From a phage: a stretch of DNA of 64,000 bases. The DNA lies in sequence record PZ445489.1; one strand, written 5' to 3'. Shown piece by piece: positions 21,221-32,159 of the stretch. The notes under the pieces were generated by a model, which was not told where the DNA came from, ran no database searches, and saw only the letters and a list, made by a program, of their open reading frames with translations. Position 1 is the stretch's first letter; every line of letters starts with the position of its first letter. Position numbers and translations under genes: made by a program.

Positions 21221-21225
21221 GTTCT

Positions 21226-21420: not shown

Positions 21421-21429
21421 AATTTCTCC

Positions 21430-21846: not shown

Positions 21847-21867
21847 AATGGGCTCCTCCCCTTAATA

Positions 21868-22860
21868 TTAAGCCGGCAGTTTAGCCTGCAGACCAGCCAG
21901 AGTCTGAGTGATAGCACCAAGACTTACAGCGATTTGATTAATTACCTGACCGTTAGCACCGTTACCCGCAGCGATTGCTTCACGTAGGCGACATGCATCT
22001 AACTCATCCTGAATACGAGCAGTAGTTACACCAGCGATAGCAGTCTGAAGTTCACAGCAACATTCAGCGATCTGACGTTCCAGAGAGTTCTGGTTAGCAC
22101 ACATCTGAGCCTGAACAGCGGCAAACTGGTTATTAGTTTGTAAAGTCTGCTGGAAAGCGATCTGTGCAGAATCAAACTTATCTTGTGCACGAGCTATCTG
22201 ATTAGCTGCGAAAGATTGATCAATCTGGCGAGAAAGATCGAACTGACCCTGAATAACGTTGCGAGTTTCCTGACAGATCTGATTAGACAGATTAGCACCT
22301 GTACCATAGATCGTAGTTAGTACAGACTGAGTATCACGGCTCTGGTTTTGGGATGTCTGGCTAAACCCATTGTTAACTGCGCTTAAAACAGCTCCAGTAC
22401 CCTGGTTAGCTTCTGTACGAGTAGTGTTAATAGCTGCTAGAATACTAGCGGTATCTTGGTTCTGAAGTACTGCATCAACTGCGGTACCATCACCAACTAC
22501 ACCACGTCCACCGAATCCACCGAAACCACCGAATCCGCCTGTTAATAGAGCACCGATTAGGATAGCTCCGAATAGTCCCATACCTTCACCACCGAAAGCA
22601 CCTGCGTTTGCTGGGTAACCACCCAGTAGGCCAGGGAAGCCACTAGTAAATACGTTTACTGGTTCTTGCATTTTATGTTTTCCATATTTATGACAATGTT
22701 CATCGTCATCTTCTTCATCATCGTGTTCACGATGTTTTTCTTCGTAGGCTCTGACCTTCTCCCACTTTTTCTTATCTGATTCCTCGTGACGGTGCAGTTC
22801 TGCTGCAACGCTAGCGACGGTCTCAGGACTCTTAGCTACTTCTTCTGTCATTTTTGACAC
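21868..22860 (-). CDS. membrane protein with His/acidic N-terminus, Gly-zipper TM segment and Q/N/T-rich domain
   Basis: GLFGAILIGALLTGGFGGFGGFGG hydrophobic Gly-rich segment; ECCCELQ cluster; RBS GGAGG. Confidence 0.55.
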   Translation of the reverse strand: MSKMTEEVAKSPETVASVAAELHRHEESDKKKWEKVRAYEEKHREHDDEEDDDEHCHKYGKHKMQEPVNVFTSGFPGLLGGYPANAGAFGGEGMGLFGAILIGALLTGGFGGFGGFGGRGVVGDGTAVDAVLQNQDTASILAAINTTRTEANQGTGAVLSAVNNGFSQTSQNQSRDTQSVLTTIYGTGANLSNQICQETRNVIQGQFDLSRQIDQSFAANQIARAQDKFDSAQIAFQQTLQTNNQFAAVQAQMCANQNSLERQIAECCCELQTAIAGVTTARIQDELDACRLREAIAAGNGANGQVINQIAVSLGAITQTLAGLQAKLPA

Positions 22861-22912
22861 CTCCTAGTATATAGAAAATGTGTGTCTCTTTGATCACTCA
22901 TCCATAACATAT

Positions 22913-22942
22913 ACTTTACACTACCCCAGCGAAAATGTCAAG
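22913..22942 (-). promoter_or_regulatory. candidate sigma70 promoter for leftward operon
   Basis: Minus strand TTGACA (22936-22941), 16-nt spacer, TAAAGT (22914-22919); not the T5 early consensus. Confidence 0.3.
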
Positions 22943-23043
22943 GGGTCTTTAAAAATTGCCCCTGAATTTTTAGTGGGGTCACAAATTTTGGTCCTCACCA
23001 CTTATCTGCTATCCTTAAGTGCCCTATGATTTTCCTCTAAAAA

Positions 23044-23104
23044 GTTAAAAAATTTGATTGCTTGAATGCTAAATTCTCTGTATAATATATCTATAAATTT
23101 GAAA
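23044..23104 (+). promoter_or_regulatory. T5-type early promoter
   Basis: TTGCTT 23058-23063, 17-nt spacer, TATAAT 23081-23086. Confidence 0.65.
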
Positions 23105-23116
23105 GAGGAACCAAAT

Positions 23117-23635
23117 ATGAATGTTGATGAGCTAACACAGCACCTCTTATCTAGAGGATTTGATACAGATAAATATCATTGCTGGTTAAGTCCGGAAGGA
23201 TGGCTAACAGTCCCGTTGTATGACTTCTCTGGGATGTTGAGGGGCTATCAAACTTATAATCCTTCTGCTCCAAAAGGTCATGGTAAGTGCCCCTTTGAAG
23301 CTAAATACTTTACTTATTCTACTACCCAGTGTGTATGGGGACTAGAAACTCTCAATGGAGATGAAAAAGTAGTATTGATTGCTGAATCTGTATTTAAGGC
23401 AGTTGCGTTACATAATGCTGGTTATCCAGCCCTAGCAATGTTGGGTTCTTCTCCAGGAAAAGCGTTATTAAAGCAACTGAAATTACTACCTTTTAAATTG
23501 GTAGCTGTCGGAGATAATGATCCTGCGGGTGAAAAATTTGCTAGAAAATTAAACGGCTTTGTTTCTCCCGTAGATGTGGATGAGATGTCTACCGAAAACT
23601 TGAAAAATTTTCTTGCTATGAAGCTAAATTTCTAA
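23117..23635 (+). CDS. Toprim-domain-like protein (172 aa)
   Basis: VVLIAESVFKAVAL..LVAVGDNDPAGEKFARKL resembles Toprim acidic motifs; ATG 23117 after GAAAGAGG. Confidence 0.45.
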   Translation: MNVDELTQHLLSRGFDTDKYHCWLSPEGWLTVPLYDFSGMLRGYQTYNPSAPKGHGKCPFEAKYFTYSTTQCVWGLETLNGDEKVVLIAESVFKAVALHNAGYPALAMLGSSPGKALLKQLKLLPFKLVAVGDNDPAGEKFARKLNGFVSPVDVDEMSTENLKNFLAMKLNF

Positions 23636-23655
23636 TATAATATATCTTATAAATT
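23600..23655 (+). promoter_or_regulatory. T5-type promoter inside 3' end of CDS, upstream of tRNAs
   Basis: TTGCTA 23613-23618, 17-nt spacer, TATAAT 23636-23641. Confidence 0.55.
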
Positions 23656-23656
23656 C

Positions 23657-23745
23657 GGAAGAATAGCATAACGGTATTGCAGCAGATTGCTAATCTGTCG
23701 GTTTGAAATATAGCCTTGTGGGTTCGATTCCCGCTTCTTCCGCCA
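23657..23745 (+). tRNA. tRNA-Ser (anticodon GCT)
   Basis: Acceptor ggaagaa/ttcttcc, anticodon loop TTGCTAA, 19-nt variable arm, T-loop TTCGATT, CCA. Confidence 0.7.
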
Positions 23746-23751
23746 AATTCT

Positions 23752-23829
23752 GGTTCTCAAGCTCATATGGTATGAGCACCCGGCTCATAACCGGAAGGTA
23801 CGTAGGTTCGAATCCTCGGGGAGCCACCA
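23752..23829 (+). tRNA. tRNA with anticodon CAT (Met, fMet or Ile2 undetermined)
   Basis: Acceptor ggttctc/gggagcc (2 G-U), anticodon loop CTCATAA, T-loop TTCGAAT, CCA; T-stem has 2 mismatches. Confidence 0.55.
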
Positions 23830-23848
23830 AATTAAATAGAGGTCACAA

Positions 23849-24037
23849 ATGGATCTATATATAGTTTATGTTGTGTTTATCCAAGATAGAGAATACCCGG
23901 ATGAATATAAAAAAGGATATAGGTTAGCCAGAGCTACCTCTGAAGCCCAAGCTATGGATAAAGTGGCAGATTATATGATTACGGTAGAAAACATACACTA
24001 TATCGACTACCTTGAAGCCTCAAAAGTAATTGACTAA
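23849..24037 (+). CDS. hypothetical protein (62 aa)
   Basis: ORF with GAGG RBS. Confidence 0.4.
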   Translation: MDLYIVYVVFIQDREYPDEYKKGYRLARATSEAQAMDKVADYMITVENIHYIDYLEASKVID

Positions 24038-24046
24038 GGAGACTAT

Positions 24047-24232
24047 ATGTCTAAGTTTCAAGAACTCAAGCAAGAGCTAGAAGAATGTGCCTGCCCTGAG
24101 TGTAGAGGAATTGGTGAAAGTTCTGATGCAGAAGCAGGAGATACTTTTTGCAATATCTGGGTTTGCCCAAATTGCAATGGTACAGGTATTAATCCTAACT
24201 GTGGTATTTCCCTAGATATTGAACGAGGATAA
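24047..24232 (+). CDS. Cys-rich zinc-ribbon-like protein (61 aa)
   Basis: CACPECRG...CPNCNG paired CxxC motifs. Confidence 0.4.
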   Translation: MSKFQELKQELEECACPECRGIGESSDAEAGDTFCNIWVCPNCNGTGINPNCGISLDIERG

Positions 24233-24333
24233 TACCTGTAAAACTAAAAGATTATTATATTGGTTGGTTTGTGGGACTAGTAGTAGGATTTTCACTAGGC
24301 TATAATATGTATCAACTAATAAACTGATTACAC

Positions 24334-24410
24334 GGGGGTGTAATCGAATTGGCATAGGTACTGGACTTAAAATTCAGGTTTTGTGGGTTCGAATCCCACC
24401 ACCCCTACCA
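24334..24410 (+). tRNA. tRNA, anticodon TAA (Leu codon UUA) with short variable loop
   Basis: Acceptor gggggtg/cacccct, anticodon stem ctgga/ttcag, loop CTTAAAA, T-loop TTCGAAT, CCA. Confidence 0.55.
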
Positions 24411-24425
24411 AACTAAGGAAATAAG

Positions 24426-24593
24426 ATGTATAGACATCCACCTCCGCCAACACGTCGTTCTAGAGAAGTTATCCTCATGGAATTGACTAAAAACTTCAAG
24501 GCAACTCTTGAAGATAGAGATCTAGGTACAGATGAAGACGTTGATTTCATTTGTAAACTATTAAAAATGAAGCTGGAGAAACATCATGGCTAA
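24426..24593 (+). CDS. hypothetical protein (55 aa)
   Basis: ORF with AAGGAA RBS; stop overlaps next start. Confidence 0.4.
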   Translation: MYRHPPPPTRRSREVILMELTKNFKATLEDRDLGTDEDVDFICKLLKMKLEKHHG

Positions 24594-24792
24594 CCGTGAA
24601 ATTACTATGCAACGAATCATGACTAAAGGCATGATAGCCGAGGCAGGTATTGAACAAGAAGTAAAAGGCTATTACGAACAGATTAAGACTATTATAGACT
24701 CTGCTAAAAACACCGGAGAAAAAGAACACGGTGCAGCAATTATGGCTATAACTCTTATTAGCCTAGACTTAGCTGAAGAATCTGGAGTTTAG
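24586..24792 (+). CDS. hypothetical protein (68 aa)
   Basis: ORF, ATGGCTAA overlap with upstream ORF. Confidence 0.45.
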   Translation: MANREITMQRIMTKGMIAEAGIEQEVKGYYEQIKTIIDSAKNTGEKEHGAAIMAITLISLDLAEESGV

Positions 24793-24809
24793 CTCCTCCA
24801 AACAGAATT

Positions 24810-24868
24810 TTTAAAAATGTACTTGCCTTTTGCTTTAAATTTCTGATATAATAGTTGTATAAATTGAT
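24810..24868 (+). promoter_or_regulatory. T5-type early promoter
   Basis: TTGCCT 24823-24828, 18-nt spacer, TATAAT 24847-24852. Confidence 0.6.
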
Positions 24869-24882
24869 GAAGGAGTTAACGA

Positions 24883-25158
24883 ATGCAAAATCGTGTTGTA
24901 GCAACTGGTATTGAAAGTGCAATCTGCAAATCCTGGGAAGACTGGGAAGGTGAGATTGAGTGGCTCTATCTCTATAACGTAGATCTTCTACCGGAGGTTA
25001 AAGCTAAATGTATTGAAGCTGGCATGGCTCCAGATGCAAAAGCTGATATTGATATTTCAATGTCTGAACTTAAAGGTCGTGTAATTACTGTTAGTGATGA
25101 GGGCGAAGAAGTTTTCGAACTTCCGTTCTCCTTAACTGTCACTCCTAAGTTCGACTAA
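24883..25158 (+). CDS. hypothetical protein (91 aa)
   Basis: ORF with AAGGAG RBS. Confidence 0.5.
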   Translation: MQNRVVATGIESAICKSWEDWEGEIEWLYLYNVDLLPEVKAKCIEAGMAPDAKADIDISMSELKGRVITVSDEGEEVFELPFSLTVTPKFD

Positions 25159-25181
25159 CTAATACAGCACTGAGCAAGTTC

Positions 25182-25238
25182 TTTAAAATTTGACTTGCTC
25201 AGTGCCTTAAAACTTGGTATAATATTTACCTAATTTGG
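25182..25238 (+). promoter_or_regulatory. T5-type promoter upstream of tRNA block
   Basis: TTGCTC 25195-25200, 16-nt spacer, TATAAT 25217-25222. Confidence 0.55.
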
Positions 25239-25288
25239 AAACATATTTAAAAGTGTTTAAATGAGAATTTTTGAATACTTCTAAATAT

Positions 25289-25379
25289 GTTGGATTAGTA
25301 TCGTAGAGGTAGCGAAGCAGACTGTAAATCTGCCGACTCGGAAGGGTCTCGGGTGGTTCGACTCCATCATCCAACACCA
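25289..25379 (+). tRNA. tRNA-Tyr (anticodon GTA)
   Basis: Acceptor gttggat/atccaac, anticodon stem gcaga/tctgc, loop CTGTAAA, 18-nt variable arm, T-loop TTCGACT, CCA. Confidence 0.7.
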
Positions 25380-25386
25380 AATTTAA

Positions 25387-25463
25387 GTCCTGTTAGACAA
25401 ACTGGTAAAGTCACTACCCTTTCAAGGTAGGATTTGCGGGTTCGATCCCCGCACAGGACGCCA
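25387..25463 (+). tRNA. tRNA-Glu (anticodon TTC)
   Basis: Acceptor gtcctgt/acaggac, anticodon stem ctacc/ggtag, loop CTTTCAA, T-loop TTCGATC, CCA. Confidence 0.7.
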
Positions 25464-25471
25464 ATTTCTGC

Positions 25472-25548
25472 ATTCCTAGAGTGTTACTGGACAGCATGTC
25501 GGTCTCCAAAACCGTACGGTCTAGGTTCGAGTCCTAGTAGGTTTGCCA
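25472..25548 (+). tRNA. tRNA-Trp (anticodon CCA), possibly degenerate
   Basis: Perfect T-arm ctagg-TTCGAGT-cctag, anticodon loop CTCCAAA, CCA; acceptor stem has two U-U mismatches. Confidence 0.5.
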
Positions 25549-25554
25549 AAATTT

Positions 25555-25629
25555 GCACCTTTAGCTGAGATGGATTAGCGCTTGCCTGAAGAGCTTGAGA
25601 GGTTCGTTCGATACGAACAGGGTGCACCA
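25555..25629 (+). tRNA. tRNA-Phe (anticodon GAA)
   Basis: Acceptor gcacctt/agggtgc, T-arm gttcg-TTCGATA-cgaac, loop CTGAAGA; anticodon stem has 2 mismatches. Confidence 0.5.
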
Positions 25630-25646
25630 AATTGAAGGAGCTGCTG

Positions 25647-25919
25647 ATGCATCCTGAAAACTTCTTTATTTACTGCGCTGATAAGTCGCTAAAACGTAGA
25701 ATTAACAAAGTCTACCATTATCGTGCTAGTCAACAGCCTTATGTATATGCTTTTGACGGTGATCACATTCCATTAGAACAATTATCTTGTGATTACATGA
25801 TATTAAAGAACTTTGACGAGACGAAGATCTCAAGCGTTCACAATCGGCAGAATCCATTAACGTGGAAATATAAGAAGAAAAAGAAAGGCATCAAATTCTT
25901 AAAAAATATAGTTGCTTAG
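25647..25919 (+). CDS. hypothetical protein (90 aa)
   Basis: ATG 25647 after AAGGAG RBS (track start 25632 is TTG). Confidence 0.5.
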   Translation: MHPENFFIYCADKSLKRRINKVYHYRASQQPYVYAFDGDHIPLEQLSCDYMILKNFDETKISSVHNRQNPLTWKYKKKKKGIKFLKNIVA

Positions 25920-25955
25920 TTTCCAAAAGTTCTGTATAATAATTACATAAATTGA
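25898..25955 (+). promoter_or_regulatory. T5-type promoter
   Basis: TTGCTT 25912-25917, 17-nt spacer, TATAAT 25935-25940. Confidence 0.55.
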
Positions 25956-25988
25956 ACTGGAGAAGCAACATGACAGAACAAGATAAAC

Positions 25989-26064
25989 CGACCGTTGGCT
26001 GAATGGCTTAGGCGAAGGATTGCAAATCCTTTTTATGTGAGTTCAAATCTCATGCGGTCGTCCA
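25989..26064 (+). tRNA. tRNA-Cys (anticodon GCA)
   Basis: Acceptor cgaccgt/gcggtcg, anticodon stem aagga/tcctt, loop TTGCAAA, T-loop TTCAAAT, CCA. Confidence 0.65.
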
Positions 26065-26071
26065 AATTTTA

Positions 26072-26154
26072 GGGTCGTTAGCCAAGCGGTTTGGCGGTGG
26101 ACTGTTAATCCATGTCGAAAGACAACGTAGGTTCGAATCCTACACGGCCCGCCA
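26072..26154 (+). tRNA. tRNA-Asn (anticodon GTT) with 13-nt variable hairpin
   Basis: Acceptor gggtcgt/acggccc, D-stem gcca/tggc, anticodon loop CTGTTAA, variable gtcGAAAgac, T-arm gtagg-TTCGAAT-cctac, CCA. Confidence 0.6.
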
Positions 26155-26256
26155 AATTCTGTGTAGAGTTAAGTAAACCGGTAGCCAACCAGCTATCATT
26201 GCTGACATCGAATTCAGCCACAGATACCATTTTCATTAATAACTGAGGAAACAAGC

Positions 26257-26442
26257 ATGTCCAAGAATGTAATTGCGCAGCTAGAAGTTCATCGTGATAG
26301 CACTATCAACAATATTGAAGTTGAAAAGAAATACATCGAAGAACTTAAACATGATATACTAGTGAGTCTCAACCGTCTTAATGTACGAAAAGAGTTTCTT
26401 AAAGAACTTAATGCAGCTATTGAAAAACTCAAAGCTGAGTAA
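26257..26442 (+). CDS. hypothetical protein (61 aa)
   Basis: ORF with GAGGAA RBS. Confidence 0.45.
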   Translation: MSKNVIAQLEVHRDSTINNIEVEKKYIEELKHDILVSLNRLNVRKEFLKELNAAIEKLKAE

Positions 26443-26451
26443 ATGAATTAT

Positions 26452-26528
26452 GCGACCGGGGCTGGCTTGGTAATGGTACTCCCCTGTCACGGGAGAGAAT
26501 GTGGGTTCAAATCCCATCGGTCGCGCCA
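26452..26528 (+). tRNA. tRNA-Asp (anticodon GTC)
   Basis: Perfect acceptor gcgaccg/cggtcgc, anticodon stem ctccc/gggag, loop CTGTCAC, T-loop TTCAAAT, CCA. Confidence 0.75.
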
Positions 26529-26554
26529 AATTAATTTAGTATGAGAAATATGCT

Positions 26555-26902
26555 ATGATTAATGCTAAAGAAGAATTGTTACTTGCCCTAAAGAATACTA
26601 ATTCTGAAGTTAAGTGTATTAAGATAGAATTCGGTTATTATGGAGACAAAGAAGTTTGGGTATTACCCGTAGGTTATACAGAAAAAGATATTGAAGATTT
26701 TCTAAATAATCTAGACTTTAAATATGATTCTGGTTTCGGTGGACAATTGCTTTATGGTAACGTATGGTTTACTGATGGAACTTGGTTAGAACGTGGTGAA
26801 TATGATGGTTCTGAATGGTGGGAATATAAGACTACACCAGCAATTCCAGAGGAATGCCGAACAATTAATGGTGAAGTAGATCGTACTTTACTATTAAATT
26901 AA
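26555..26902 (+). CDS. hypothetical protein (115 aa)
   Basis: ORF. Confidence 0.5.
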   Translation: MINAKEELLLALKNTNSEVKCIKIEFGYYGDKEVWVLPVGYTEKDIEDFLNNLDFKYDSGFGGQLLYGNVWFTDGTWLERGEYDGSEWWEYKTTPAIPEECRTINGEVDRTLLLN

Positions 26903-27024
26903 CAAAATCTCAGTGCAGAACACGGAGCTAGCAATTCGGAAGTGCTGACTCATGATAAGCTGCCTATGTACTTGCGAAGCGGTCGTGTCCAAGACTCGGA
27001 CTCTTGCACTGAAAACAATCAAAC

Positions 27025-27145
27025 ATTCTAGCGTGGTTGATGGGGAAACCAGCTTGGCTAGGGCAGAAGCTCGTTCGATTCGAGTGAAAGAATGGTTCTC
27101 GTAAGTCCGCACAAGTGATAGCAGGTTCGAGTCCTGTCTAGAATG
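27025..27145 (+). ncRNA. tRNA-like RNA with about 50-nt internal expansion (about 121 nt)
   Basis: Perfect 7-bp acceptor pairing attctag/ctagaat 113 nt apart, canonical T-arm gcagg-TTCGAGT-cctgt, D-arm-like hairpin; no normal anticodon arm. Confidence 0.35.
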
Positions 27146-27334
27146 ACATATTCTGGAGGTTTTGTGAATTACAAAGAATTAGATCTTTTAGCAAATAAAT
27201 TCACAGAGCTATCTGATAACGTTGTATCAAAGGACTCCAACATAGATAATTTTATTACTGAATATCGTGATGGTATAATCTCTAAACAAGAGTTGTTAGA
27301 TAAAACGTATAAATATTTAAAGGGGTTCAGCTAA
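27143..27334 (+). CDS. hypothetical protein (63 aa)
   Basis: ORF; start overlaps end of tRNA-like element; weak RBS. Confidence 0.35.
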   Translation: MTYSGGFVNYKELDLLANKFTELSDNVVSKDSNIDNFITEYRDGIISKQELLDKTYKYLKGFS

Positions 27335-27631
27335 ACGGTTAAGCACTGTCCTACTTCGGACAGAGGGAGTAACACGTAGTCTCCCAAACTCCCCCAAATT
27401 TAGATTTCTGCTTCCTAGAGAACGGACTTCTGAATAAACAAGGCGATGAAGTTTCCGGCCGGTTCTAGTCGCTAAAGTCCCTCTAACGGGGCGTAAGTAA
27501 ATGAAAGTTTACTTATTATGTAGGTTCCGATAGATCGGCGGGTCTATTCTGGCATTTAAGAGAGGTCTCGCAAACTTCTTTGTCAGCCGTGGGGTTGGTA
27601 GCCTCCAGGTGGCCTACACAATAAGTAAATT

Positions 27632-27692
27632 TATTAAAAATTCATTTGCTATTCTGCTATATTATCTGTATAATATATTTTATAAAGTGAAG
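27632..27692 (+). promoter_or_regulatory. T5-type early promoter
   Basis: TTGCTA 27646-27651, 17-nt spacer, TATAAT 27669-27674. Confidence 0.65.
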
Positions 27693-27706
27693 AGAAGGAA
27701 AGCAAA

Positions 27707-27865
27707 ATGAAACACAAGATAGCTCAAGTTTTTATGACATTATGGTGTATGCCAATAGCTATAACAGCATTTAATCTAGATACTTTTACTATAGAAGAAA
27801 AATGTATCGGATTAGTTAGCGGCTTTAGTATGCTGGGCTTATCTTTGTTGTGGTTGAAGAAATAA
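27707..27865 (+). CDS. small hydrophobic membrane protein (52 aa)
   Basis: ATG after GAAGGAAAG RBS and promoter; below ORF-track cutoff. Confidence 0.4.
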   Translation: MKHKIAQVFMTLWCMPIAITAFNLDTFTIEEKCIGLVSGFSMLGLSLLWLKK

Positions 27866-27868
27866 TAT

Positions 27869-27946
27869 TCTCCGTGTAGCTCAGTTTGGCCAGAGCGTTT
27901 CGTTTGGGGCGATAGGGTCGGGGGTTCAAATCCTCCCACGGAGACC
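27869..27946 (+). tRNA. tRNA-Pro (anticodon TGG)
   Basis: Acceptor ctccgtg/cacggag, D-arm TAGCTCAGTTTGGCCAGAGC, loop TTTGGGG, T-loop TTCAAAT, CCA. Confidence 0.65.
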
Positions 27947-27952
27947 AAACAA

Positions 27953-28030
27953 TTGCGGGTTAGATCTCTGGTAGAGATCGCTAGTCTCATAAGCTAGAAA
28001 GAGGTAGGTTCGATTCCTGCACCCGCTTCC
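27953..28030 (+). tRNA. tRNA with anticodon CAT (Met, fMet or Ile2 undetermined)
   Basis: D-stem gatc/gatc, anticodon stem ctagt/gctag, loop CTCATAA, T-loop TTCGATT, CCA; position 1:72 is U-U. Confidence 0.6.
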
Positions 28031-28220
28031 ACTTTAATAGAGGATTTCGAAATGAAAGTATTTCGATTAGTAGTAAGTGACAAACGTTTAGGTAATAATA
28101 CCTCAAGATCCTTACTTGCACATTATGGTAAAAATTGGGATGAAGTAATGGCAGAGTTTAATACTAATCACCCTTACTTGAAAGTTCACTCTATTAAAGA
28201 GGTATATAATGGTTACTAAT

Positions 28221-28298
28221 AGATCGCTAGCTCAACTGGATAAGAGTAGCGGACCTTTAATCCGTCAGTTCTGGGTTCGAATCCCAGGCGATCTACCA
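28221..28298 (+). tRNA. tRNA-Lys (anticodon TTT)
   Basis: Acceptor agatcgc/gcgatct, D-arm GCTCAACTGGATAAGAGT, loop CCTTTAA, T-arm ctggg-TTCGAAT-cccag, CCA. Confidence 0.65.
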
Positions 28299-28302
28299 AA
28301 TT

Positions 28303-28376
28303 GCTCGGTTAGTTTAATGGGAGAACCCCGTCTTTACACGGCGGTTGTGATAGTTCGATTCTATCACCGAGTACCA
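28303..28376 (+). tRNA. tRNA-Val (anticodon TAC)
   Basis: Acceptor gctcggt/accgagt, anticodon stem ccgtc/ggcgg, loop TTTACAC, T-arm gatag-TTCGATT-ctatc, CCA. Confidence 0.65.
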
Positions 28377-28395
28377 ATTAACTCAAAATAAGGAA

Positions 28396-28764
28396 TTGCA
28401 AATGCAATTATCAAACAAGATTCAAGGTTATTTCGGTCATGTGACAATGGAGTTCGCATTGCAGCATGGCTGGGATATGGAAAAAGATCTATCGGAATTT
28501 TATGAGTCTCATAAAGAGATTGATCTTAGTTCTGTCTATTTGGGATTATCTACTGGTCAAGAACTTACAGAATATGATGTATTCAAGGCAAGTCAAGGTG
28601 AGATAACACCTAGTTTTGCCGAGTTCTGGCTAGGAATTACCTTGAAGGATAATGCACCAGATGAAGGTGTGGTTATGCAAAGTATGCACTCTGGAAGCTC
28701 TGATTACCTTTACGTTCGTGATGTAAAGGAACTACAGGAAATCGCTAAAAATGTACTTGCTTAA
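28396..28764 (+). CDS. hypothetical protein (122 aa)
   Basis: ORF with AAGGAA RBS. Confidence 0.5.
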   Translation: MQMQLSNKIQGYFGHVTMEFALQHGWDMEKDLSEFYESHKEIDLSSVYLGLSTGQELTEYDVFKASQGEITPSFAEFWLGITLKDNAPDEGVVMQSMHSGSSDYLYVRDVKELQEIAKNVLA

Positions 28765-28803
28765 TGCTTAATTTCTTGTTATAATATTTATATAAATTGA
28801 TGC
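28743..28803 (+). promoter_or_regulatory. T5-type promoter (overlaps 3' end of CDS)
   Basis: TTGCTT 28757-28762, 17-nt spacer, TATAAT 28780-28785. Confidence 0.6.
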
Positions 28804-29124
28804 GAAAATAGCTGCCTAGATACCAGGTGTATGACGTCTACACTAGCAGAGCTACCGAAAAAGAGATCCTCAGGATAAACGTCGTAGCAAAATTAGTCTG
28901 GTATCCATCAATTTAGTTCACTAAGGTATTAGCTCGACCTAGGACTGGCTGCCAAAAAGCACGATCCCTACAATTCGGGAGAAGTTCTAGATTAGTCCAC
29001 TAGATTCAGCGGCAACTGAATAGTGTATCGGGTTTGCGAGATGACGCAGTTCCTTCCGCTCGAAGCGAAGGTGCTGTAGTTACGCCGAGCTAATAGCCTT
29101 AGTAAACTTACAGGGGTTAACGCA

Positions 29125-29511
29125 GTGTGTACAAAAACATGTAGAGCCTGTGGGAATGAATATCCGTTAACAACCGAATATTTTTATTCGAATGGATTTA
29201 CTCCTAATGGCACAAAGAAGTGGAAGCCAACATGTAAAGCATGTGAAAAAGCTGAACGAGTAGCTGGACATGAAGAATTAATTAAAGAAGTATTTCCTGT
29301 ATTAGAATGTAGTATTTGTGGATATAATAGGTGTAAACAAGCCCTAGATTTCCACCGTACTAATCCAGAAGAAAAGGAATACTCCATTGCAAGGTTTAGA
29401 ACTTCTCGTAGAAACAGAGAAGTAGTAATAGCAGAACTTAAAAAGTGCGTACTATTATGCTCTAACTGCCATAGAGAAGTACATGCTGGATTAATAAATT
29501 TGGGCGAATAG
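29125..29511 (+). CDS. HNH endonuclease
   Basis: C-terminal LLCSNCHREVHAG HNH motif plus CxxC pairs; GTG start; stop codon lies inside tRNA-Ala acceptor stem. Confidence 0.6.
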   Translation: MCTKTCRACGNEYPLTTEYFYSNGFTPNGTKKWKPTCKACEKAERVAGHEELIKEVFPVLECSICGYNRCKQALDFHRTNPEEKEYSIARFRTSRRNREVVIAELKKCVLLCSNCHREVHAGLINLGE

Positions 29512-29577
29512 TGTCAGCGGGAGCACACCAGACTTGCAATCTGGTAGGGAGGGTTCGAGTCCCTCTTTGTCCACCAA
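29503..29577 (+). tRNA. tRNA-Ala (anticodon TGC)
   Basis: Acceptor gggcgaa/tttgtcc (2 G-U), anticodon stem ccaga/tctgg, loop CTTGCAA, T-arm gaggg-TTCGAGT-ccctc, CCA. Confidence 0.7.
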
Positions 29578-29582
29578 ATACG

Positions 29583-29659
29583 CGTGATTGATGGAATTGG
29601 CATACATACCGTCCTTAGAAGTCGGGTTTTGAGGGTTCGAATCCCTTGTCACGCACCAA
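29583..29659 (+). tRNA. tRNA, anticodon TAG (Leu codon CUA) with short variable loop
   Basis: Acceptor gcgtgat/gtcacgc, D-loop AATTGGCAT shared with tRNA at 24334, loop CTTAGAA, T-loop TTCGAAT, CCA. Confidence 0.55.
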
Positions 29660-29771
29660 ATTTGATGGTCAGAGTAAATTAAACCTACTATCTCGGTTGA
29701 GCTGTTTTAATGGGTTCGAATCCCAGCGAGGCGTAACTGCCTGGTGTGATAGAGGCATCATCTTATTATTG

Positions 29772-29862
29772 GAAGAGCAAATCGAATTGGCGACGAAAAC
29801 CGCTTGGAAAGTGGCTGACTGGTAAAACGGCTTGAGAGTTCAAATCTCTCCTCTTCCGCCAA
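29772..29862 (+). tRNA. tRNA-Ser (anticodon GGA)
   Basis: Acceptor ggaagag/ctcttcc, anticodon loop TTGGAAA, 18-nt variable arm, T-arm gagag-TTCAAAT-ctctc, CCA; architecture parallels E. coli tRNA-Ser. Confidence 0.65.
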
Positions 29863-29868
29863 ATAATA

Positions 29869-29958
29869 GAAGATAGGACGTAGTGGTACGTAACTGGTCT
29901 TGAAAACCAGCCCGCTGTAGCGATACGGTGATGGTTCGACTCCATTATCTTCTGCCAA
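29869..29958 (+). tRNA. tRNA-Ser (anticodon TGA)
   Basis: Acceptor agaagat/atcttct, perfect anticodon stem ctggt/accag, loop CTTGAAA, 19-nt variable arm, T-loop TTCGACT, CCA. Confidence 0.7.
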
Positions 29959-29977
29959 TTAGCTATAAGGAAACCTT

Positions 29978-30151
29978 ATGAGCAAAACAGTTACTGTAAC
30001 AATGAAGGATGGCAAAAAATTTAAAGCATGTCTTCATGAAACAGATAAGGGATGGATGGCTTACTTGCCACACCTAGATTCCACCGGGTATGGAATGACC
30101 CAACGTGAAGCTATTGTTGATGCTTTAAATGAGGCTTCTGCTGGTTTATAA
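29978..30151 (+). CDS. small protein (57 aa), possible HicB-like fold
   Basis: ATG after AAGGAAACC RBS; KDGKKFKACLHETDKGWMAYLPHLDSTGYG loosely recalls HicB-type antitoxin N-termini; unverified. Confidence 0.3.
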   Translation: MSKTVTVTMKDGKKFKACLHETDKGWMAYLPHLDSTGYGMTQREAIVDALNEASAGL

Positions 30152-30520
30152 AAAATTCTTGAAGTATGCCGGAATCGGTAGACGGGGCTGCCTAAAAGGT
30201 TTATAGGGAACATCCACTCCCTGCAACATACCTCATAAAGCGGCTGAGATAAATGGTCTATCTCGTGAAGGTTCAAGTCCTTCTGCTTCTTGATACATCT
30301 ATGGCTCAAAGTGTAACGGTGCTATTTGATGCTCTTGGTAAGACTTCCCCGACATGCGTTCGGGAGTAAGCTGCTAAGACTAGAGTAGAAGAGTTTCTGA
30401 GAGCCGCCACAATTGAAAATTCGTACTCGTCTTGAGCTGCGTGCAATAGGAGATAACTTGATTAGTATTCTAGAACATGCTAATTGAGGAAGGTTTCGCT
30501 AACCCTGCGAGTTTTCAATT

Positions 30521-30597
30521 GTGGCTATATCATAATTGGTTAATGATCCTGATTGTGAATCAGGCCTATGTGGATTCGAATTCCACTAGCCACCCCA
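30521..30597 (+). tRNA. tRNA-His (anticodon GTG)
   Basis: Acceptor gtggcta/tagccac, D-stem tcat/atga, perfect anticodon stem cctga/tcagg, loop TTGTGAA, T-arm gtgga-TTCGAAT-tccac, CCA. Confidence 0.75.
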
Positions 30598-30622
30598 AAT
30601 TAACTTAAATAGGAAATAAAAT

Positions 30623-30829
30623 ATGGCTGATTTCTGCAAACAATGCTCCATTGATATGTGGGGCAGAGATACTGGTGATCTTTCTGGTTTGATTACAGAA
30701 GCTGAGGTCAAAGAAGGTTATGGTGTAGTTGTGGTTTGCGAAGGGTGCGGAGTTATTCGAGTAGATCATGAAGGCAAACGTTTAGAAGATCCAAAAAGTA
30801 TTAAGAAGAAGGTTAGCCAAGTCGGTTAA
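30623..30829 (+). CDS. Cys-rich small protein (68 aa)
   Basis: CKQCS...CEGCG motifs; 3' end overlaps tRNA-Gln by about 23 nt. Confidence 0.4.
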   Translation: MADFCKQCSIDMWGRDTGDLSGLITEAEVKEGYGVVVVCEGCGVIRVDHEGKRLEDPKSIKKKVSQVG

Positions 30830-30882
30830 GGCTGGGGTCTCTGAAACCCCGATCAGTGGTTCGAACCCACTACCTTCTGCCA
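30807..30882 (+). tRNA. tRNA-Gln (anticodon CTG)
   Basis: Acceptor agaaggt/accttct, perfect anticodon stem ggggt/acccc, loop CTCTGAA, T-arm agtgg-TTCGAAC-ccact, CCA. Confidence 0.7.
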
Positions 30883-30888
30883 AACAGT

Positions 30889-30966
30889 TGGGGATTAGCT
30901 TAGCCTGGTCTAAAGCTTCGGCCTTTGAAGTCGAGATCATTGGTTCAAATCCAATATCCCCTGCCA
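30889..30966 (+). tRNA. tRNA-Gln (anticodon TTG)
   Basis: D-stem gctt/aagc, anticodon loop CTTTGAA, T-arm attgg-TTCAAAT-ccaat, CCA; position 1:72 is U-U. Confidence 0.6.
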
Positions 30967-30974
30967 AACAATAA

Positions 30975-31050
30975 GCGGTTAAGCACACGGGTTGTGTCGC
31001 AGGCCTTCCAAGCCTCGCTGAGTAGGGTTCGATTCCCTCTAGCCGCTCCA
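30975..31050 (+). tRNA. tRNA-Gly (anticodon TCC)
   Basis: Acceptor gcggtta/tagccgc, anticodon loop CTTCCAA, T-loop TTCGATT, CCA. Confidence 0.6.
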
Positions 31051-31066
31051 ACTTTAAGGGAACATT

Positions 31067-31288
31067 ATGCACGTTTTTGAGTTTCGTAATAAAAGTACTG
31101 ATAAACGAGTTATTGTTATTGGGGAAACATACCGAGCATACGAACAAACTGACGGTTCTGTTATCCTGAATGATGAGAAAGGAGGTTTTAGCTTTTATCC
31201 CAAAGAAACTTACGAAGAATTTCGTACAAAGTTTCTTCTACCAGACTGGCTAGAAGTAGCGCAGCAACGAGAACCCGAAGATGGCTGA
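31067..31288 (+). CDS. hypothetical protein (73 aa)
   Basis: ORF. Confidence 0.45.
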   Translation: MHVFEFRNKSTDKRVIVIGETYRAYEQTDGSVILNDEKGGFSFYPKETYEEFRTKFLLPDWLEVAQQREPEDG

Positions 31289-31445
31289 CAACCTAAAAGT
31301 CAAGATCGATAAACAAAAGAAACGTGTAGAAGTAGAGATTGGTGAAGAACGTGTAGCCTTCACCTTTGAATTTCTACAACAAATGGCAATGACAGTTATG
31401 ACTGATAAGTCTCCTGTTATTGAAAAAGAAATCCCGTTGAAATAA
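31281..31445 (+). CDS. hypothetical protein (54 aa)
   Basis: ATGGCTGA overlap with upstream stop; below ORF-track cutoff. Confidence 0.3.
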   Translation: MADNLKVKIDKQKKRVEVEIGEERVAFTFEFLQQMAMTVMTDKSPVIEKEIPLK

Positions 31446-31455
31446 CGGGATCATC

Positions 31456-31530
31456 GCTCCTAAAGCATTGCTGGCGATGCAGTTGCCTTGTAAGCATCTG
31501 AACCGGGTTCGATTCCTGGTGGGAGCACCA
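31456..31530 (+). tRNA. tRNA-Thr (anticodon TGT)
   Basis: Acceptor gctccta/tgggagc, D-stem gcat/atgc, anticodon loop CTTGTAA, T-loop TTCGATT, CCA. Confidence 0.65.
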
Positions 31531-31531
31531 A

Positions 31532-31592
31532 ATTTAAAAATTCATTTGCCTTCTCTCTTATTTCTTGTTATAATATCTATATAAATTAATGA
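31532..31592 (+). promoter_or_regulatory. T5-type early promoter
   Basis: TTGCCT 31546-31551, 17-nt spacer, TATAAT 31569-31574. Confidence 0.65.
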
Positions 31593-31604
31593 GAGGGAAA
31601 CCAA

Positions 31605-31895
31605 ATGAAACGTTATCTTTCTGTAGTATTCCAAACTGGTGGTCAAAGATATACCTATGAATTTCCATCTTCTTGGAAAATCAAAGAAGGTGATCAAGTA
31701 GTAGTGTTAACACCGCGTGAAGGATATAAAGTAGTAACGGTTAAACAAGTATTCCCAAAAGATCATGAACCAGCTAAAGGCATTCGCTATAAGATGATTC
31801 ATGGTGTGGTTCGTCAAGTACCACGAACTGAGGTAGAAGTAGATAAGACTGGAGAAGCTAAATTCCATTATACTTCTTACTTAGACAGTGTATGA
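31605..31895 (+). CDS. hypothetical protein (96 aa)
   Basis: ORF with GAGAGGGAAA RBS. Confidence 0.5.
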   Translation: MKRYLSVVFQTGGQRYTYEFPSSWKIKEGDQVVVLTPREGYKVVTVKQVFPKDHEPAKGIRYKMIHGVVRQVPRTEVEVDKTGEAKFHYTSYLDSV

Positions 31896-31910
31896 TGTAA
31901 ATATTCTAAT

Positions 31911-31987
31911 ACTTCGGTAGCTTAGCGATCTAAAGCACTCGGCTGATAACCGAGAGATCGGGGGTTTAAATCCCTCCCGGAGTACCA
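31911..31987 (+). tRNA. tRNA-Ile (anticodon GAT)
   Basis: Acceptor acttcgg/ccggagt, D-stem gctt/aagc, perfect anticodon stem ctcgg/ccgag, loop CTGATAA, T-loop TTTAAAT (atypical), CCA. Confidence 0.65.
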
Positions 31988-32083
31988 AATCTAGGAATTA
32001 AGACTATGCGTCCAGGAAAGTTTAAAAAAGCTAATTGGTCTAAAGAGTATAAAGAATACTTACTTAGTCTAGTAAAACATAAC

Positions 32084-32159
32084 AGTTAGTTGGCAGAGTG
32101 GTTATGCACCTCCTTCATACGGAGCGACTACAGTGGTTCAAATCCACTACTAACTACCA
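32084..32159 (+). tRNA. tRNA with anticodon CAT (Met, fMet or Ile2 undetermined)
   Basis: Perfect acceptor agttagt/actaact, anticodon loop TTCATAC, T-arm agtgg-TTCAAAT-ccact, CCA. Confidence 0.6.

What the first reader, a model, noticed from the sequence alone, without database searches (positions are those of the whole stretch)
27335..27640. 300-nt ORF-free structured stretch without tRNA signatures
Between ORF 27143-27334 and the next promoter, the sequence contains several stable hairpins (ctgtcc-tacttc-ggacag; taagtaaa-tgaaag-tttactta; gtagcc-tccaggt-ggcctac) but no T-loop motif and no ORF.
Basis: seen in the sequence. Interest (0 to 1): 0.35.

Follow-up and report, generated by a model that had tools for sequence, protein, structure and literature searches.

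The report
tRNA mimic, spacer and RNA IV
The 300-base stretch is three adjacent non-coding pieces of a T5-type phage's tRNA gene cluster: an unannotated tRNA look-alike carrying the alanine identity mark, a conserved hairpin spacer, and the long-known stable 'RNA IV' whose function nobody knows.

Summary
The window is a T5-like phage (Tequintavirus, 99.4% identical to phage vB_EcoD-Elw here). The flagged stretch is non-coding and structured on the + strand, but it is a mosaic of three modules.

- **A, 27322-27396.** A 75-nt tRNA-like gene whose first 13 nt overlap the upstream ORF. It has a cloverleaf and an encoded CCA. G1-C72, G2-C71 and G3·U70 are invariant while the rest of the acceptor stem covaries. 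The T-loop is a conserved but non-canonical 11 nt, and the "anticodon" arm varies in length. It is unannotated, absent from Rfam and missed by ARAGORN. It occurs in about 100 phage records from Demerecviridae and N4-like Schitoviridae.
- **B, 27397-27515.** A hairpin array with an invariant core hairpin. It is unannotated, and in BF23 and Epseptimavirus it lies between tRNA-Gly and RNA IV.
- **C, 27518-27620.** "RNA IV", annotated in T5, BF23 and phage 5 as a stable RNA of unknown function. It is a cloverleaf-like four-way junction closed by a long flanking helix.

Modules A and B are missing from T5 and most relatives, so they are dispensable cassettes. The window's copy of A carries a discriminator change (A73C) predicted to mis-register its acceptor stem.

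The parts
27164..27334 (+). Small ORF 'trn 2.10.1' (56 aa from the GTG start; RBS GGAGG at 27155-27159). Context only: its last 13 nt are the 5' end of tRNA-like module A.
   Evidence: Annotated in AJ604531. 68% identical homologue in phiLLS and LVR16A. No Pfam hit, and only a marginal PHROG hit of unknown function.
27322..27396 (+). Module A: a 75-nt tRNA-like gene.
   Evidence: The cloverleaf is the MFE fold in relatives. Covariance model R1 scores the window copy 74.4 bits against 22 bits or less for true tRNAs. In 15 distinct homologues 97% of cells are paired, 11 of 20 pairs show compensatory changes, and 0 of 500 shuffles do as well; G1-C72, G2-C71 and G3·U70 are invariant. No Rfam or ARAGORN hit.
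27398..27435 (+). Module B, hairpin B1. It starts 2 nt after the CCA at the conserved junction CCA|AAUUU.
   Evidence: RNAalifold consensus. The pair at alignment columns 10:35 is A-U in 4 sequences and G-C in 3. In JLBYU43 and INF11 the whole hairpin is replaced by an unrelated hairpin of similar size that itself covaries.
27442..27473 (+). Module B, core hairpin B2 (GGCGAT...GTCGCT). The apical loop carries the palindrome CCGGCCGG (27455-27462). This is the most conserved part of B.
   Evidence: Invariant in 9 aligned sequences. Present in all Markadamsvirinae loci that carry B, including BF23, and in a variant form in phage 'phagemcphageface'. Absent from the Sugarlandvirus, My1 and N4-like loci.
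27477..27492 (+). Module B, short hairpin B3 (GTCCC-TCTAAC-GGGGC).
   Evidence: Predicted. It is length-variable between clades, with one compensatory pair.
27494..27515 (+). Its 5' arm repeats the TAAGTAAA found 3' of RNA IV (27623-27630). Its 3' arm is shared with the RNA IV flanking helix.
   Evidence: T5 and FGS009 lack the 5' arm.
27505..27517 (+). 5' arm of the 13-bp helix that flanks RNA IV (pairs with 27620-27632).
   Evidence: 13 pairs; 12 are invariant and paired in all 11 homologues and one is broken in one sequence. The arm is continuous with the RNA IV closing stem across a 2x2 internal loop.
27518..27620 (+). Module C: RNA IV (103 nt), a four-way junction. P1 pairs 27520-27528 with 27608-27617. 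P2 is hairpin 27529-27548 with loop GGCG. P3/P4 is hairpin 27549-27586 with the 7-nt loop CUCGCAA. P5 is hairpin 27591-27605.
   Evidence: Positional and sequence homologue of the 'rnaIV: stable RNA with unknown functions' feature in AJ604531, AY543070 and NC_042564. Structure is 99.3% paired, with 10 of 49 pairs compensatory and 0 of 500 shuffles as good.
27620..27632 (+). 3' arm of the RNA IV flanking helix.
27646..27674 (+). Promoter P13a (TTGCTA-17-TATAAT). This is the right-hand boundary of the non-coding block and drives the next unit: a small membrane ORF, then tRNA-Pro and tRNA-fMet.
   Evidence: Consensus scan. Annotated as promoter P13a in phage 5, T5 and BF23.

Best explanation
The stretch is part of an early polycistronic tRNA-cluster transcript of a T5-like phage. 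That transcript is read on the + strand from upstream promoters of the P14b type, with no terminator before P13a. It carries three separate RNA cassettes.

(A) A non-decoding tRNA mimic. Shown: a covarying cloverleaf with an encoded CCA; an invariant G1-C72/G2-C71/G3·U70 end, with discriminator A73 in all copies except the window's; a conserved D-loop and a conserved 11-nt T-loop; and a length-variable arm with no conserved anticodon loop. Inferred: host RNase P and 3' trimming excise it like a tRNA, and host alanyl-tRNA synthetase charges it through G3·U70. It cannot read codons, so it would act in trans as a decoy or sponge, or as an alanyl carrier, for some tRNA-binding factor. The window's own allele (A73C, plus a C7·A66 mismatch shared by its clade) is predicted to mis-pair its acceptor end and may be crippled.

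(B) A hairpin array that is the 3' trailer of whatever tRNA-type module lies upstream. Inferred: the conserved AU-rich CCA|AAUUU junction is the endonucleolytic 3'-processing site. B is then released as a fragment of about 100 nt, or degraded. Its invariant B2 hairpin suggests a sequence-specific partner.

(C) RNA IV, a known stable RNA. Shown: a cloverleaf-like four-way junction enclosed by a helix of about 22 bp formed by its flanks. Inferred: that helix is the double-strand-specific (RNase III-type) excision site. The annotated ends sit at its internal loop with a short 3' overhang.

Modules A and B are optional cassettes exchanged at tRNA 3' ends, in a locus that also collects homing-endonuclease genes.
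For: Identity of the locus: 99.4% to phage Elw, and homologous to the curated tRNA-region records of phage 5, T5 and BF23.

Strand: structure is specific to the + strand, and all 23 tRNA genes are on the + strand.

Module A: covering 15 distinct sequences from 8 sequence types in Tequintavirus, Epseptimavirus, Sugarlandvirus, Myunavirus and two Schitoviridae genera. 97% of cells are paired and 11 of 20 pairs are compensatory. Pairs 1:72, 2:71 and 3:70 never vary, whereas 4:69 to 7:66 show 3, 2, 4 and 2 standard pair types respectively. The T-stem covaries in K60PH164C1 while the T-loop stays identical. In Demerecviridae the element sits 6 nt after the CCA of a preceding tRNA. In N4-like phages it is a solitary element with no canonical tRNA nearby. 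Among the window's own tRNAs only tRNA-Ala has the same acceptor-end set.

Window allele: the slipped acceptor register is predicted at 78% probability against 7% for the canonical one, whereas the A73 allele of NBSal003 is 99% canonical.

Module B.

Module C.

Modularity.

Established knowledge, not tested here: G3·U70 with A73 is sufficient for alanylation of tRNAs, minihelices and tmRNA by AlaRS; RNase P processes tRNA-like folds; RNase III cuts helices of about 20 bp or longer with a staggered 2-nt overhang.
Against: - There is no expression, processing or charging data for A or B in any phage. The curated BF23 and phage 5 records list the other stable RNAs of the region and annotate neither A nor B.
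- A and B are absent from T5 and from most Tequintavirus records, so they are not needed for growth.
- In the window's clade all copies have a C7·A66 mismatch. Three of the four copies examined each carry one private, uncompensated change: window A73C, an Elw anticodon-stem A·C, and a phage 5 T-stem A·C. This is compatible with decay, though three changes are too few to test.
- The D-stem third pair is broken in 2 of 15 sequences.
- G3·U70 could be inherited from a tRNA-Ala ancestor rather than selected.
- The proposed D-loop/T-loop pairing shows no covariation.
- B2 never varies, so its hairpin is unproven.
- The RNase III assignment rests only on geometry and on annotated ends.
Confidence: 0.6

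Rival explanations
1. Evolutionary debris. A is a decaying tRNA-Ala-derived pseudogene and B is a neutral spacer. Both were carried into this phage by cassette exchange and have no function here. Only RNA IV is a real gene.
For: - A and B are missing from T5 and from most relatives.
- The window clade shows a shared acceptor mismatch plus private uncompensated changes, and the window allele is predicted to misfold.
- The expert-curated records do not annotate A or B.
Against: - A pseudogene would not keep 97% pairing through 11 compensatory pairs, nor an identical 11-nt T-loop and D-loop, across Demerecviridae subfamilies and unrelated N4-like phages.
- In N4-like phages it is the only tRNA-type element in the loci examined.
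- B2 is invariant while neighbouring hairpins change.
- The debris reading can still be true for this particular allele.
Confidence: 0.2
2. One single non-coding RNA of about 300 nt spans 27335-27640, which is what the first reader implied.
For: The whole stretch is ORF-free and its global fold has z = -2.86.
Against: - The three parts occur independently. RNA IV occurs alone in T5. B plus RNA IV occur without A in BF23 and Epseptimavirus. A occurs without B in Sugarland, My1 and N4-like phages.
- All supported helices are local to one module.
- The left boundary falls inside a cloverleaf.
Confidence: 0.03
3. The conserved sequences matter mainly as processing punctuation, or as DNA-level recombination and homing-endonuclease landmarks. 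Under this reading A is kept only as an RNase P cleavage signal that separates or inactivates the upstream mRNA. B and the CCA|AAUUU junction serve as cassette-exchange sites.
For: - A overlaps the last 13 nt of ORF trn 2.10.1. Cleavage at G27322 would remove that ORF's stop codon, an arrangement seen for other T5 ORF/tRNA overlaps in the annotations.
- All module junctions fall right after a CCA.
- HNH genes occupy this locus in phage 2-3, INF11 and phage 5.
Against: - RNase P punctuation does not require the invariant G3·U70, A73, D-loop or T-loop sequences.
- In N4-like phages A follows a terminator and abuts a convergent gene, so there is nothing to punctuate.
- A DNA-level role does not explain compensatory base-pair changes.
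Confidence: 0.12
4. A is a genuine decoding tRNA, for example a suppressor or frameshift-type tRNA with an odd anticodon loop, that gene finders miss.
For: Cloverleaf, CCA, acceptor identity set and position in a tRNA array. In My1 the arm has a 7-nt loop, UUGAAUC.
Against: - The arm between the D- and T-arms ranges from 18 to 31 nt, and its loops have different sizes and sequences. The window has a 6-nt loop, Sugarland a 30-nt bulged arm.
- There is no variable region of normal length.
- The T-loop has 11 nt instead of 7.
- The Rfam tRNA model gives no hit at E<=10.
Confidence: 0.03

Closest known systems
T5 / BF23 / phage 5 'RNA IV' (rnaIV; stable RNA with unknown functions; GenBank AY543070, NC_042564, AJ604531)
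   Same: Window 27518-27620 is this gene. It has the same position upstream of promoter P13a, is 103 nt long, and is near-identical in sequence.
   Different: Nothing for module C. The records give no structure. The covarying four-way junction and the 13-bp flanking helix were worked out here. Modules A and B are not part of that feature.
T5-family 'tRNA-like RNAs' RNA1, RNA2 and RNA3 (annotated by the same group)
   Same: Same kind of object as module A: tRNA-shaped, non-decoding, embedded in the tRNA array, function unknown.
   Different: No sequence relationship. nhmmer and BLAST find no paralogue of A in the window. Model R1 finds nothing in T5 or BF23 beyond weak hits to true tRNAs. A has an Ala-type acceptor end and an 11-nt T-loop, and it also occurs outside Demerecviridae.
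tRNA-like domain of tmRNA (SsrA)
   Same: A non-decoding RNA with G1-C72/G2-C71/G3·U70, A73 and CCA that AlaRS charges (established knowledge). Module A has the same acceptor-end set.
   Different: Module A has no mRNA-like reading frame or pseudoknots, both acceptor strands lie within 75-89 nt, and the T-loop is non-canonical. ARAGORN's tmRNA search finds nothing.
Aminoacylatable viral tRNA-like structures (e.g. the TYMV 3' TLS) and non-proteinogenic tRNAs with altered T-loops (e.g. Staphylococcus tRNA-Gly used for cell-wall synthesis)
   Same: All are RNAs that keep synthetase identity elements and a CCA end but are not used for normal decoding. This resemblance is recalled from memory and is a lead, not a test.
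   Different: Different hosts, sequences and architectures. No Rfam TLS or tRNA model matches. Charging of module A is untested.
tRNA precursor spacers that act as RNAs in their own right (E. coli 3'ETS of glyW-cysT-leuZ) and phage T4 species 1 / species 2 RNAs
   Same: Module B is a conserved 3' trailer of a tRNA-type gene. RNA IV, like the T4 species RNAs, is a stable by-product of a phage tRNA cluster with no known function. These analogies come from memory.
   Different: No sequence similarity was tested or expected. No partner RNA or protein is known for B.

Membership tests
T5-type RNA IV | Sequence homology to the annotated rnaIV feature, in the same position (downstream of RNA2 or tRNA-Gly, immediately upstream of promoter P13a) | tested here: met
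   Alignment with phage 5, T5 and BF23; the columns across 27504-27640 are almost all invariant.
T5-type RNA IV | Accumulates as a stable RNA of about 103 nt in infected cells | not testable with these tools
   Rests on the depositors' annotation ('stable RNA') in AY543070, NC_042564 and AJ604531.
Canonical tRNA (Rfam RF00005 / ARAGORN) | Cloverleaf with a 7-bp acceptor stem and a 3' CCA or discriminator | tested here: met
   Module A.
Canonical tRNA (Rfam RF00005 / ARAGORN) | 7-nt T-loop (T-Psi-C-R-A-N-N), 7-nt anticodon loop on a 5-bp stem, variable region of 4 nt or more, and a score above the model threshold | tested here: not met
   The T-loop is 11 nt (TAACACGTAGT). The arm is 18-31 nt with non-conserved loops. 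There is no RF00005 hit at E<=10 in the window or in four N4-like loci, and no ARAGORN call.
AlaRS substrates (tRNA-Ala, tmRNA, Ala minihelices) | G3·U70 wobble pair in the acceptor stem, with G1-C72, G2-C71 and A73 | tested here: met
   G1-C72, G2-C71 and G3·U70 in 15 of 15 distinct family members. A73 in 14 of 15; the window itself has C73.
AlaRS substrates (tRNA-Ala, tmRNA, Ala minihelices) | Is actually aminoacylated with alanine | not testable with these tools
   Needs an in vitro charging assay or acid-gel Northern blots.
tmRNA | Tag-peptide reading frame and pseudoknots between the two halves of the tRNA-like domain | tested here: not met
   ARAGORN finds no tmRNA. Module A is a compact 75-nt cloverleaf.
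Any curated RNA family (Rfam 15) | Covariance-model match | tested here: not met
   There is no match inside 27335-27640 at E<=10. The only two matches in the 26850-27750 scan (27116-27259 and 27238-27297) lie upstream in RNA2 and ORF trn 2.10.1 and are chance-level. At gathering thresholds the only matches in the whole window are tRNAs.
Protein-coding gene or leader peptide | Conserved reading frame | tested here: not met
   No ORF of 30 aa or more. The 9-aa ATG frame in B2 is shifted by an indel in Epseptimavirus and the ATG is lost in phage 5.
Intrinsic terminator | GC-rich hairpin followed by a U-run | tested here: not met
   No terminator-like site in 27335-27640.

The most novel reading that the evidence does not exclude
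Module A would define a previously undescribed family of phage-encoded, alanine-chargeable, non-decoding tRNA mimics. Their elbow would be built from a conserved D-loop / 11-nt T-loop pair, with a possible 6-bp loop-loop interaction between CGGUUA and UAAC-A-CG. The family has been spread horizontally between T5-like (Demerecviridae) and N4-like (Schitoviridae) phages of enterobacteria. It would work in trans, either as a decoy for a host tRNA-targeting defence or toxin or as a dedicated alanyl donor. That would extend the recently recognised counter-defence role of T5 tRNA genes to tRNA look-alikes.
Probability: 0.25. Interest if true: 0.75.

Novelty: new variant of a known kind. Interest (0 to 1): 0.45.

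Why it matters
T5-family tRNA clusters are now understood partly as counter-defence arsenals. Phage tRNAs are proposed to compensate for host tRNA-cleaving abortive-infection nucleases, and T5 tRNA-Tyr rescues the toxicity of retron Ec78 / Eco7 (PMC10644984, read; bioRxiv 10.1101/2023.03.15.532788, abstract). The same clusters carry several stable and tRNA-like RNAs whose functions have stayed unknown since they were first annotated.

This analysis adds a structure for RNA IV that covariation supports. It also finds two conserved elements that are annotated nowhere. One of them is a tRNA mimic with the alanine identity set and an unusual T-loop, and it also occurs as a solitary element in unrelated N4-like phages. 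That distribution, together with the invariant G3·U70, makes the mimic a concrete and cheaply testable candidate for a trans-acting phage RNA. Charging, RNase P cleavage and deletion phenotypes on defence-system panels are all straightforward assays.

For the window itself the result is more modest. One third is already known, and the window's own copy of the mimic may be defective.

Tried and rejected
- **Rfam.** Gathering thresholds on the whole window, and E<=10 on 26850-27750 and on four N4-like loci, gave nothing relevant.
- **ARAGORN.** The tRNA/tmRNA search on the window and on 10 loci never calls module A.
- **Paralogue search.** BLAST-short and nhmmer searches for copies of A, B or C inside the window found none.
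- **Collection scans with the T-arm motif.**
  - IMG/VR returned 4 hits, all known isolates.
  - Metagenomes returned 4 hits: 3 real (2 N4-like, 1 Klebsiella T5-like) and 1 chance match inside a coding-looking region.
  - The species-representative bacterial genomes returned 11 hits in unrelated taxa. My own estimate is that a 17-mer would give on the order of a hundred chance matches in 596 Gb, so these were treated as chance, with no sign of a host or prophage copy.
- **Coding potential of B.** Rejected because of the frame-shifting indel and the loss of the ATG.
Rejected by the comparative test.
- **D-loop/T-loop kissing helix.** Complementary in most sequences, but with no covariation, so it is kept only as a conjecture.
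- **Descent of A from the phage's own tRNA-Ala.** No special similarity; the best global alignment scores are to tRNA-Asn, tRNA-Met and tRNA-Gln.
- **A protein gene that travels with A.** The upstream ORFs of the T5-like and N4-like carriers are unrelated, and the adjacent ORFs have no family assignment.
- **Remote homologues of B2 outside Markadamsvirinae.** None in the held loci.
- **Literature.** Searches for T5 stable or tRNA-like RNAs, a T5 transcriptome, and phage tRNA-like decoys found nothing describing A, B or a function for RNA IV. The original 1980s papers are not in the searchable library.
Full report
**What the window is.** A 901-nt query around the finding matches 512 phage records. 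The best is Escherichia phage vB_EcoD-Elw (99.4%), and all the good matches are T5-like Demerecviridae. The finding lies inside the + strand tRNA array, where ARAGORN tRNAs and Rfam 24. Three expert-curated records of this region exist: phage 5 (AJ604531), T5 (AY543070) and BF23 (NC_042564). Besides tRNAs they annotate promoters, small ORFs, 'tRNA-like RNAs' (RNA1, RNA2, RNA3) and 'stable RNAs with unknown functions' (RNA I, III, IV, 2H, X).

**Checking the observation.**
- There is no ORF of 30 aa or more on either strand between 27335 and 27608.
- The + strand folds to -93.9 kcal/mol (z = -2.86), while the - strand gives z = -0.93.
- No Rfam family matches inside the stretch even at E<=10, and there is no terminator-like site.
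- The promoter at the right edge (27646-27674) is P13a.
- So the stretch is non-coding and structured on the transcribed strand, as described.

**It is a mosaic.** Pairwise comparison shows three configurations.
- T5, FGS009 and most Tequintavirus records jump from 27148 (the end of RNA2) straight to 27504.
- phiLLS and LVR16A keep the small ORF but lack 27325-27494.
- Only about six records (Elw, OSYSP, NBSal003, phage 5) carry everything.
- Window 27394-27480 is 92% identical to sequence lying immediately after the CCA end of tRNA-Gly(GCC) in more than 200 Epseptimavirus and BF23-type records.
- Window 27364-27398 recurs in 77 Klebsiella Sugarlandvirus records, in Pectobacterium phage My1, and in N4-like Schitoviridae.
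- I therefore treat the stretch as three modules.

**Module C (27518-27620) is RNA IV.**
- It aligns base for base with the rnaIV feature of phage 5, T5 and BF23.
- RNAalifold on 11 homologues gives a four-way junction made of a closing stem and three hairpins. One hairpin carries a 7-nt loop, CUCGCAA.
- The junction is enclosed by a further 13-bp helix between 27505-27517 and 27620-27632.
- The structure is 99.3% paired, 10 of 49 pairs show compensatory double changes, 0 of 500 shuffles do as well, and slid controls pair at 39-53%.
- The closing stem plus the flanking helix, separated by a 2x2 internal loop, form a duplex of about 22 bp. The annotated mature ends sit at that loop with a short 3' overhang.
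- I infer excision by RNase III-type cleavage. This is an inference from geometry.
It is only 74% paired across homologues and indistinguishable from shuffles, so it is rejected.

**Module A (27322-27396) is a tRNA-like gene that nobody has annotated.**
- *How it was found.* Reading the homologous places in other phages showed that the conserved 3' piece is a T-arm plus acceptor 3' strand plus CCA. The matching 5' strand, GGGGTTC, starts at 27322, inside the last four codons of ORF trn 2.10.1.
- *Fold.* The cloverleaf is the plain MFE fold of most family members.
- *Covariation.* A hand-built alignment of 13 sequences, and then a covariance-model alignment of 15 distinct sequences, give 95-97% paired cells. 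Eleven pairs show compensatory changes, 0 of 500 shuffles do as well, and slid controls pair at 31-55%.
- *What varies and what does not.*
  - Acceptor pairs 4:69 to 7:66 and all five outer pairs of the middle arm covary.
  - The T-stem covaries in K60PH164C1 (GUGGG/CCCAC against GGGAG/CUCCC).
  - G1-C72, G2-C71 and G3·U70 are identical in 15 of 15 sequences, and the discriminator is A in 14 of 15.
  - The D-arm (AGCUAAWCGGUUAAGC) and the 11-nt T-loop (UAACACGUAGU) are almost invariant.
  - The middle arm is 18-31 nt long, with unrelated loops, so there is no anticodon in any usual sense.
- *Distinctness.* Model R1 scores family members at 65-88 bits. The next best hits are genuine tRNAs at 22 bits or less, and there is no second copy in the window, T5 or BF23. 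The Rfam tRNA model and ARAGORN both miss it everywhere.
- *Genomic setting.* In Demerecviridae it sits 6 nt after the CCA of a preceding tRNA. In N4-like phages it is a lone element after a terminator, with no tRNA in the fetched loci.
- *Distribution.* Pattern scans found no copy in species-representative bacterial genomes beyond chance matches, and only a few further phage-like contigs in IMG/VR and metagenomes.

**How A most likely works.**
- *Shown:* a selected tRNA-shaped fold with a CCA end and the acceptor-end nucleotides that define alanine identity.
- *Established knowledge, from memory:* G3·U70 with A73 is sufficient for AlaRS to charge tRNAs, acceptor minihelices and tmRNA, independently of the anticodon.
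- *Inferred:* A is cut out by RNase P and 3' trimming like its tRNA neighbours, and is charged with alanine. It cannot decode. It therefore acts in trans as a decoy or sponge for a tRNA-binding host factor, or as an alanyl carrier.
- *Conjecture:* the D-loop CGGUUA and the T-loop UAAC-A-CG are complementary over 6 bp, which might replace the normal elbow contacts. Those positions never covary, so this stays a conjecture.
- *The window's own copy.* It shares a C7·A66 mismatch with its clade and uniquely has discriminator C73. That creates CUCCCCCA, and the thermodynamic model then puts 78% of the ensemble in a slipped acceptor register, against 99% canonical for the A73 allele. This particular copy may be impaired.

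**Module B (27397-27515).**
- RNAalifold on nine homologues predicts four hairpins.
- B1 covaries, and in JLBYU43 and INF11 it is swapped for a different hairpin that covaries in turn.
- B2 (GGCGAT...GTCGCT, with a loop containing CCGGCCGG) is invariant. It survives in modified form in phagemcphageface, with one possible compensatory change.
- B3 is short and variable.
Its 5' arm is a direct repeat of the TAAGTAAA that follows RNA IV. Its 3' arm belongs to the RNA IV flanking helix, so the two cannot form together. T5 lacks the 5' arm.
- B is not coding.
- In the loci held here it is confined to Markadamsvirinae, and it is unannotated even in the curated BF23 record (gap 5474-5620).
- In the loci examined it follows a CCA end at the junction CCA|AAU(U/C)U, or the remnant ACCAAAUC after the HNH ORF in INF11. 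It precedes RNA IV in every locus examined.
- I infer that it is the 3' trailer released when the upstream tRNA-type module is matured. The conserved B2 hairpin hints at a specific partner. This is the weakest part of the account.

**Transcription and modularity.**
- No promoter or terminator consensus lies between the upstream tRNA genes and P13a, and P14b is annotated upstream of tRNA-Cys. A, B and RNA IV are therefore most simply parts of one early precursor, together with tRNA-Cys, tRNA-Asn, RNA3, tRNA-Asp, RNA2 and the small ORFs.
- Modules are joined right after CCA ends.
- The same locus holds HNH homing-endonuclease genes in phage 2-3, INF11 and phage 5. That fits cassette exchange.
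- RNase P cleavage at G27322 would remove the stop codon of ORF trn 2.10.1. This is an inference. Similar overlaps between an ORF 3' end and a tRNA 5' end are annotated elsewhere in T5.

**Comparison with what is known, and novelty.**
- Module C is already known as a gene, though not as a structure or a function.
- Module A belongs to the known kind 'tRNA-like RNAs of T5-family tRNA clusters' but is unrelated to RNA1, RNA2 and RNA3. Its acceptor end resembles tRNA-Ala and tmRNA. It fails the tests for a canonical tRNA (T-loop, anticodon arm, model score) and for tmRNA.
- Module B has no known relative.
- Literature searches found no description of A or B and no function for RNA IV.
- The current view that T5 tRNAs counter tRNA-cleaving defences (PMC10644984; 10.1101/2023.03.15.532788) gives a plausible frame for a decoy role but is not evidence for it.

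**Verdict.** The region is an ordinary part of a T5-type tRNA cluster. One third is already annotated. It also contains a well-supported, undescribed tRNA-mimic family and a conserved spacer element. Interest is moderate (0.45). The most novel reading that the evidence does not exclude, a chargeable trans-acting alanine tRNA mimic shared by T5-like and N4-like phages, gets about 0.25 probability.

Noticed in passing
window 26903-27148: Between ORF trn 2.10 and ORF trn 2.10.1 lie an unannotated 121-nt non-coding piece (26903-27023) and the annotated tRNA-like RNA2 (27024-27148, T-arm CAGGTTCGAGTCCTG). In HMD-P2 this whole block directly follows the CCA of a module-A copy at 92% identity. The predicted fold has a long closing stem, CAGUGCAGA/UCUUGCACUG, but the overall z-score is unremarkable (+0.39).
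   Followed up: partly
L007 (Salmonella phage GSW6) 1108-1209: An element of about 100 nt with a perfect 7-bp acceptor stem (GTAGTGA/TCACTAC), a canonical T-arm (GTAGG-TTCGACT-CCTAC) and ACCA. It sits where tRNA-Gly or module A sits in other phages, directly upstream of module B. ARAGORN does not call it, so it is another unannotated long tRNA-like RNA.
   Followed up: no
window 20049-20123: As delimited by ARAGORN, the phage tRNA-Arg(UCU) has a G·T pair at acceptor position 3:70, with C1-G72 and discriminator G. That is unexpected for a non-alanine tRNA. The register was not checked against other phages.
   Followed up: no
window, whole tRNA array (20049-32159): ARAGORN calls no tRNA-Gly gene in the window's array, although T5, BF23 and the Epseptimaviruses carry one or two. 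In this phage module A occupies the slot that tRNA-Gly(GCC) has in BF23. Rfam calls a tRNA at 23752-23826 (40.3 bits) that ARAGORN omits; phage 5 annotates tRNA-Ile2 (CAU) at the homologous place.
   Followed up: partly
window 27495-27502 and 27623-27630: A direct repeat of TAAGTAAA flanks RNA IV. Both copies can pair with TTTACTTA (27508-27515). It looks like a duplication or recombination scar from the joining of module B to the RNA IV cassette.
   Followed up: partly
window 27707-27865: A 52-aa ORF (PHROG 18174, unknown function; annotated in T5 as containing two transmembrane domains) follows P13a. Phage 5 carries the homing endonuclease gene hegB (F-TflIII) in exactly this place, overlapping tRNA-Pro, so this is a second indel hot spot next to the finding.
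   Followed up: no
L010 (Klebsiella phage MY01) 424-503; L039 (Salmonella phage As2) 609-688; L038 (Klebsiella phage K60PH164C1) 602-679: In N4-like Schitoviridae the tRNA mimic stands alone. In MY01, As2 and two metagenome contigs it comes right after an intrinsic terminator and abuts the end of a convergent gene (the virion RNA polymerase gene in MY01). In K60PH164C1 it lies under a CDS annotated as a pseudogenised rIIB, which may be an annotation artefact.
   Followed up: partly
L012 (Pectobacterium phage My1) 1532-1770: My1 has a divergent RNA IV homologue with clear compensatory changes (for example GUAAAC/GUUUAC in P2). Where module B would be, it has an unrelated segment of about 150 nt closed by a long inverted repeat, TTAGTGTTAATAT / ATATTAACACTAA.
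   Followed up: no
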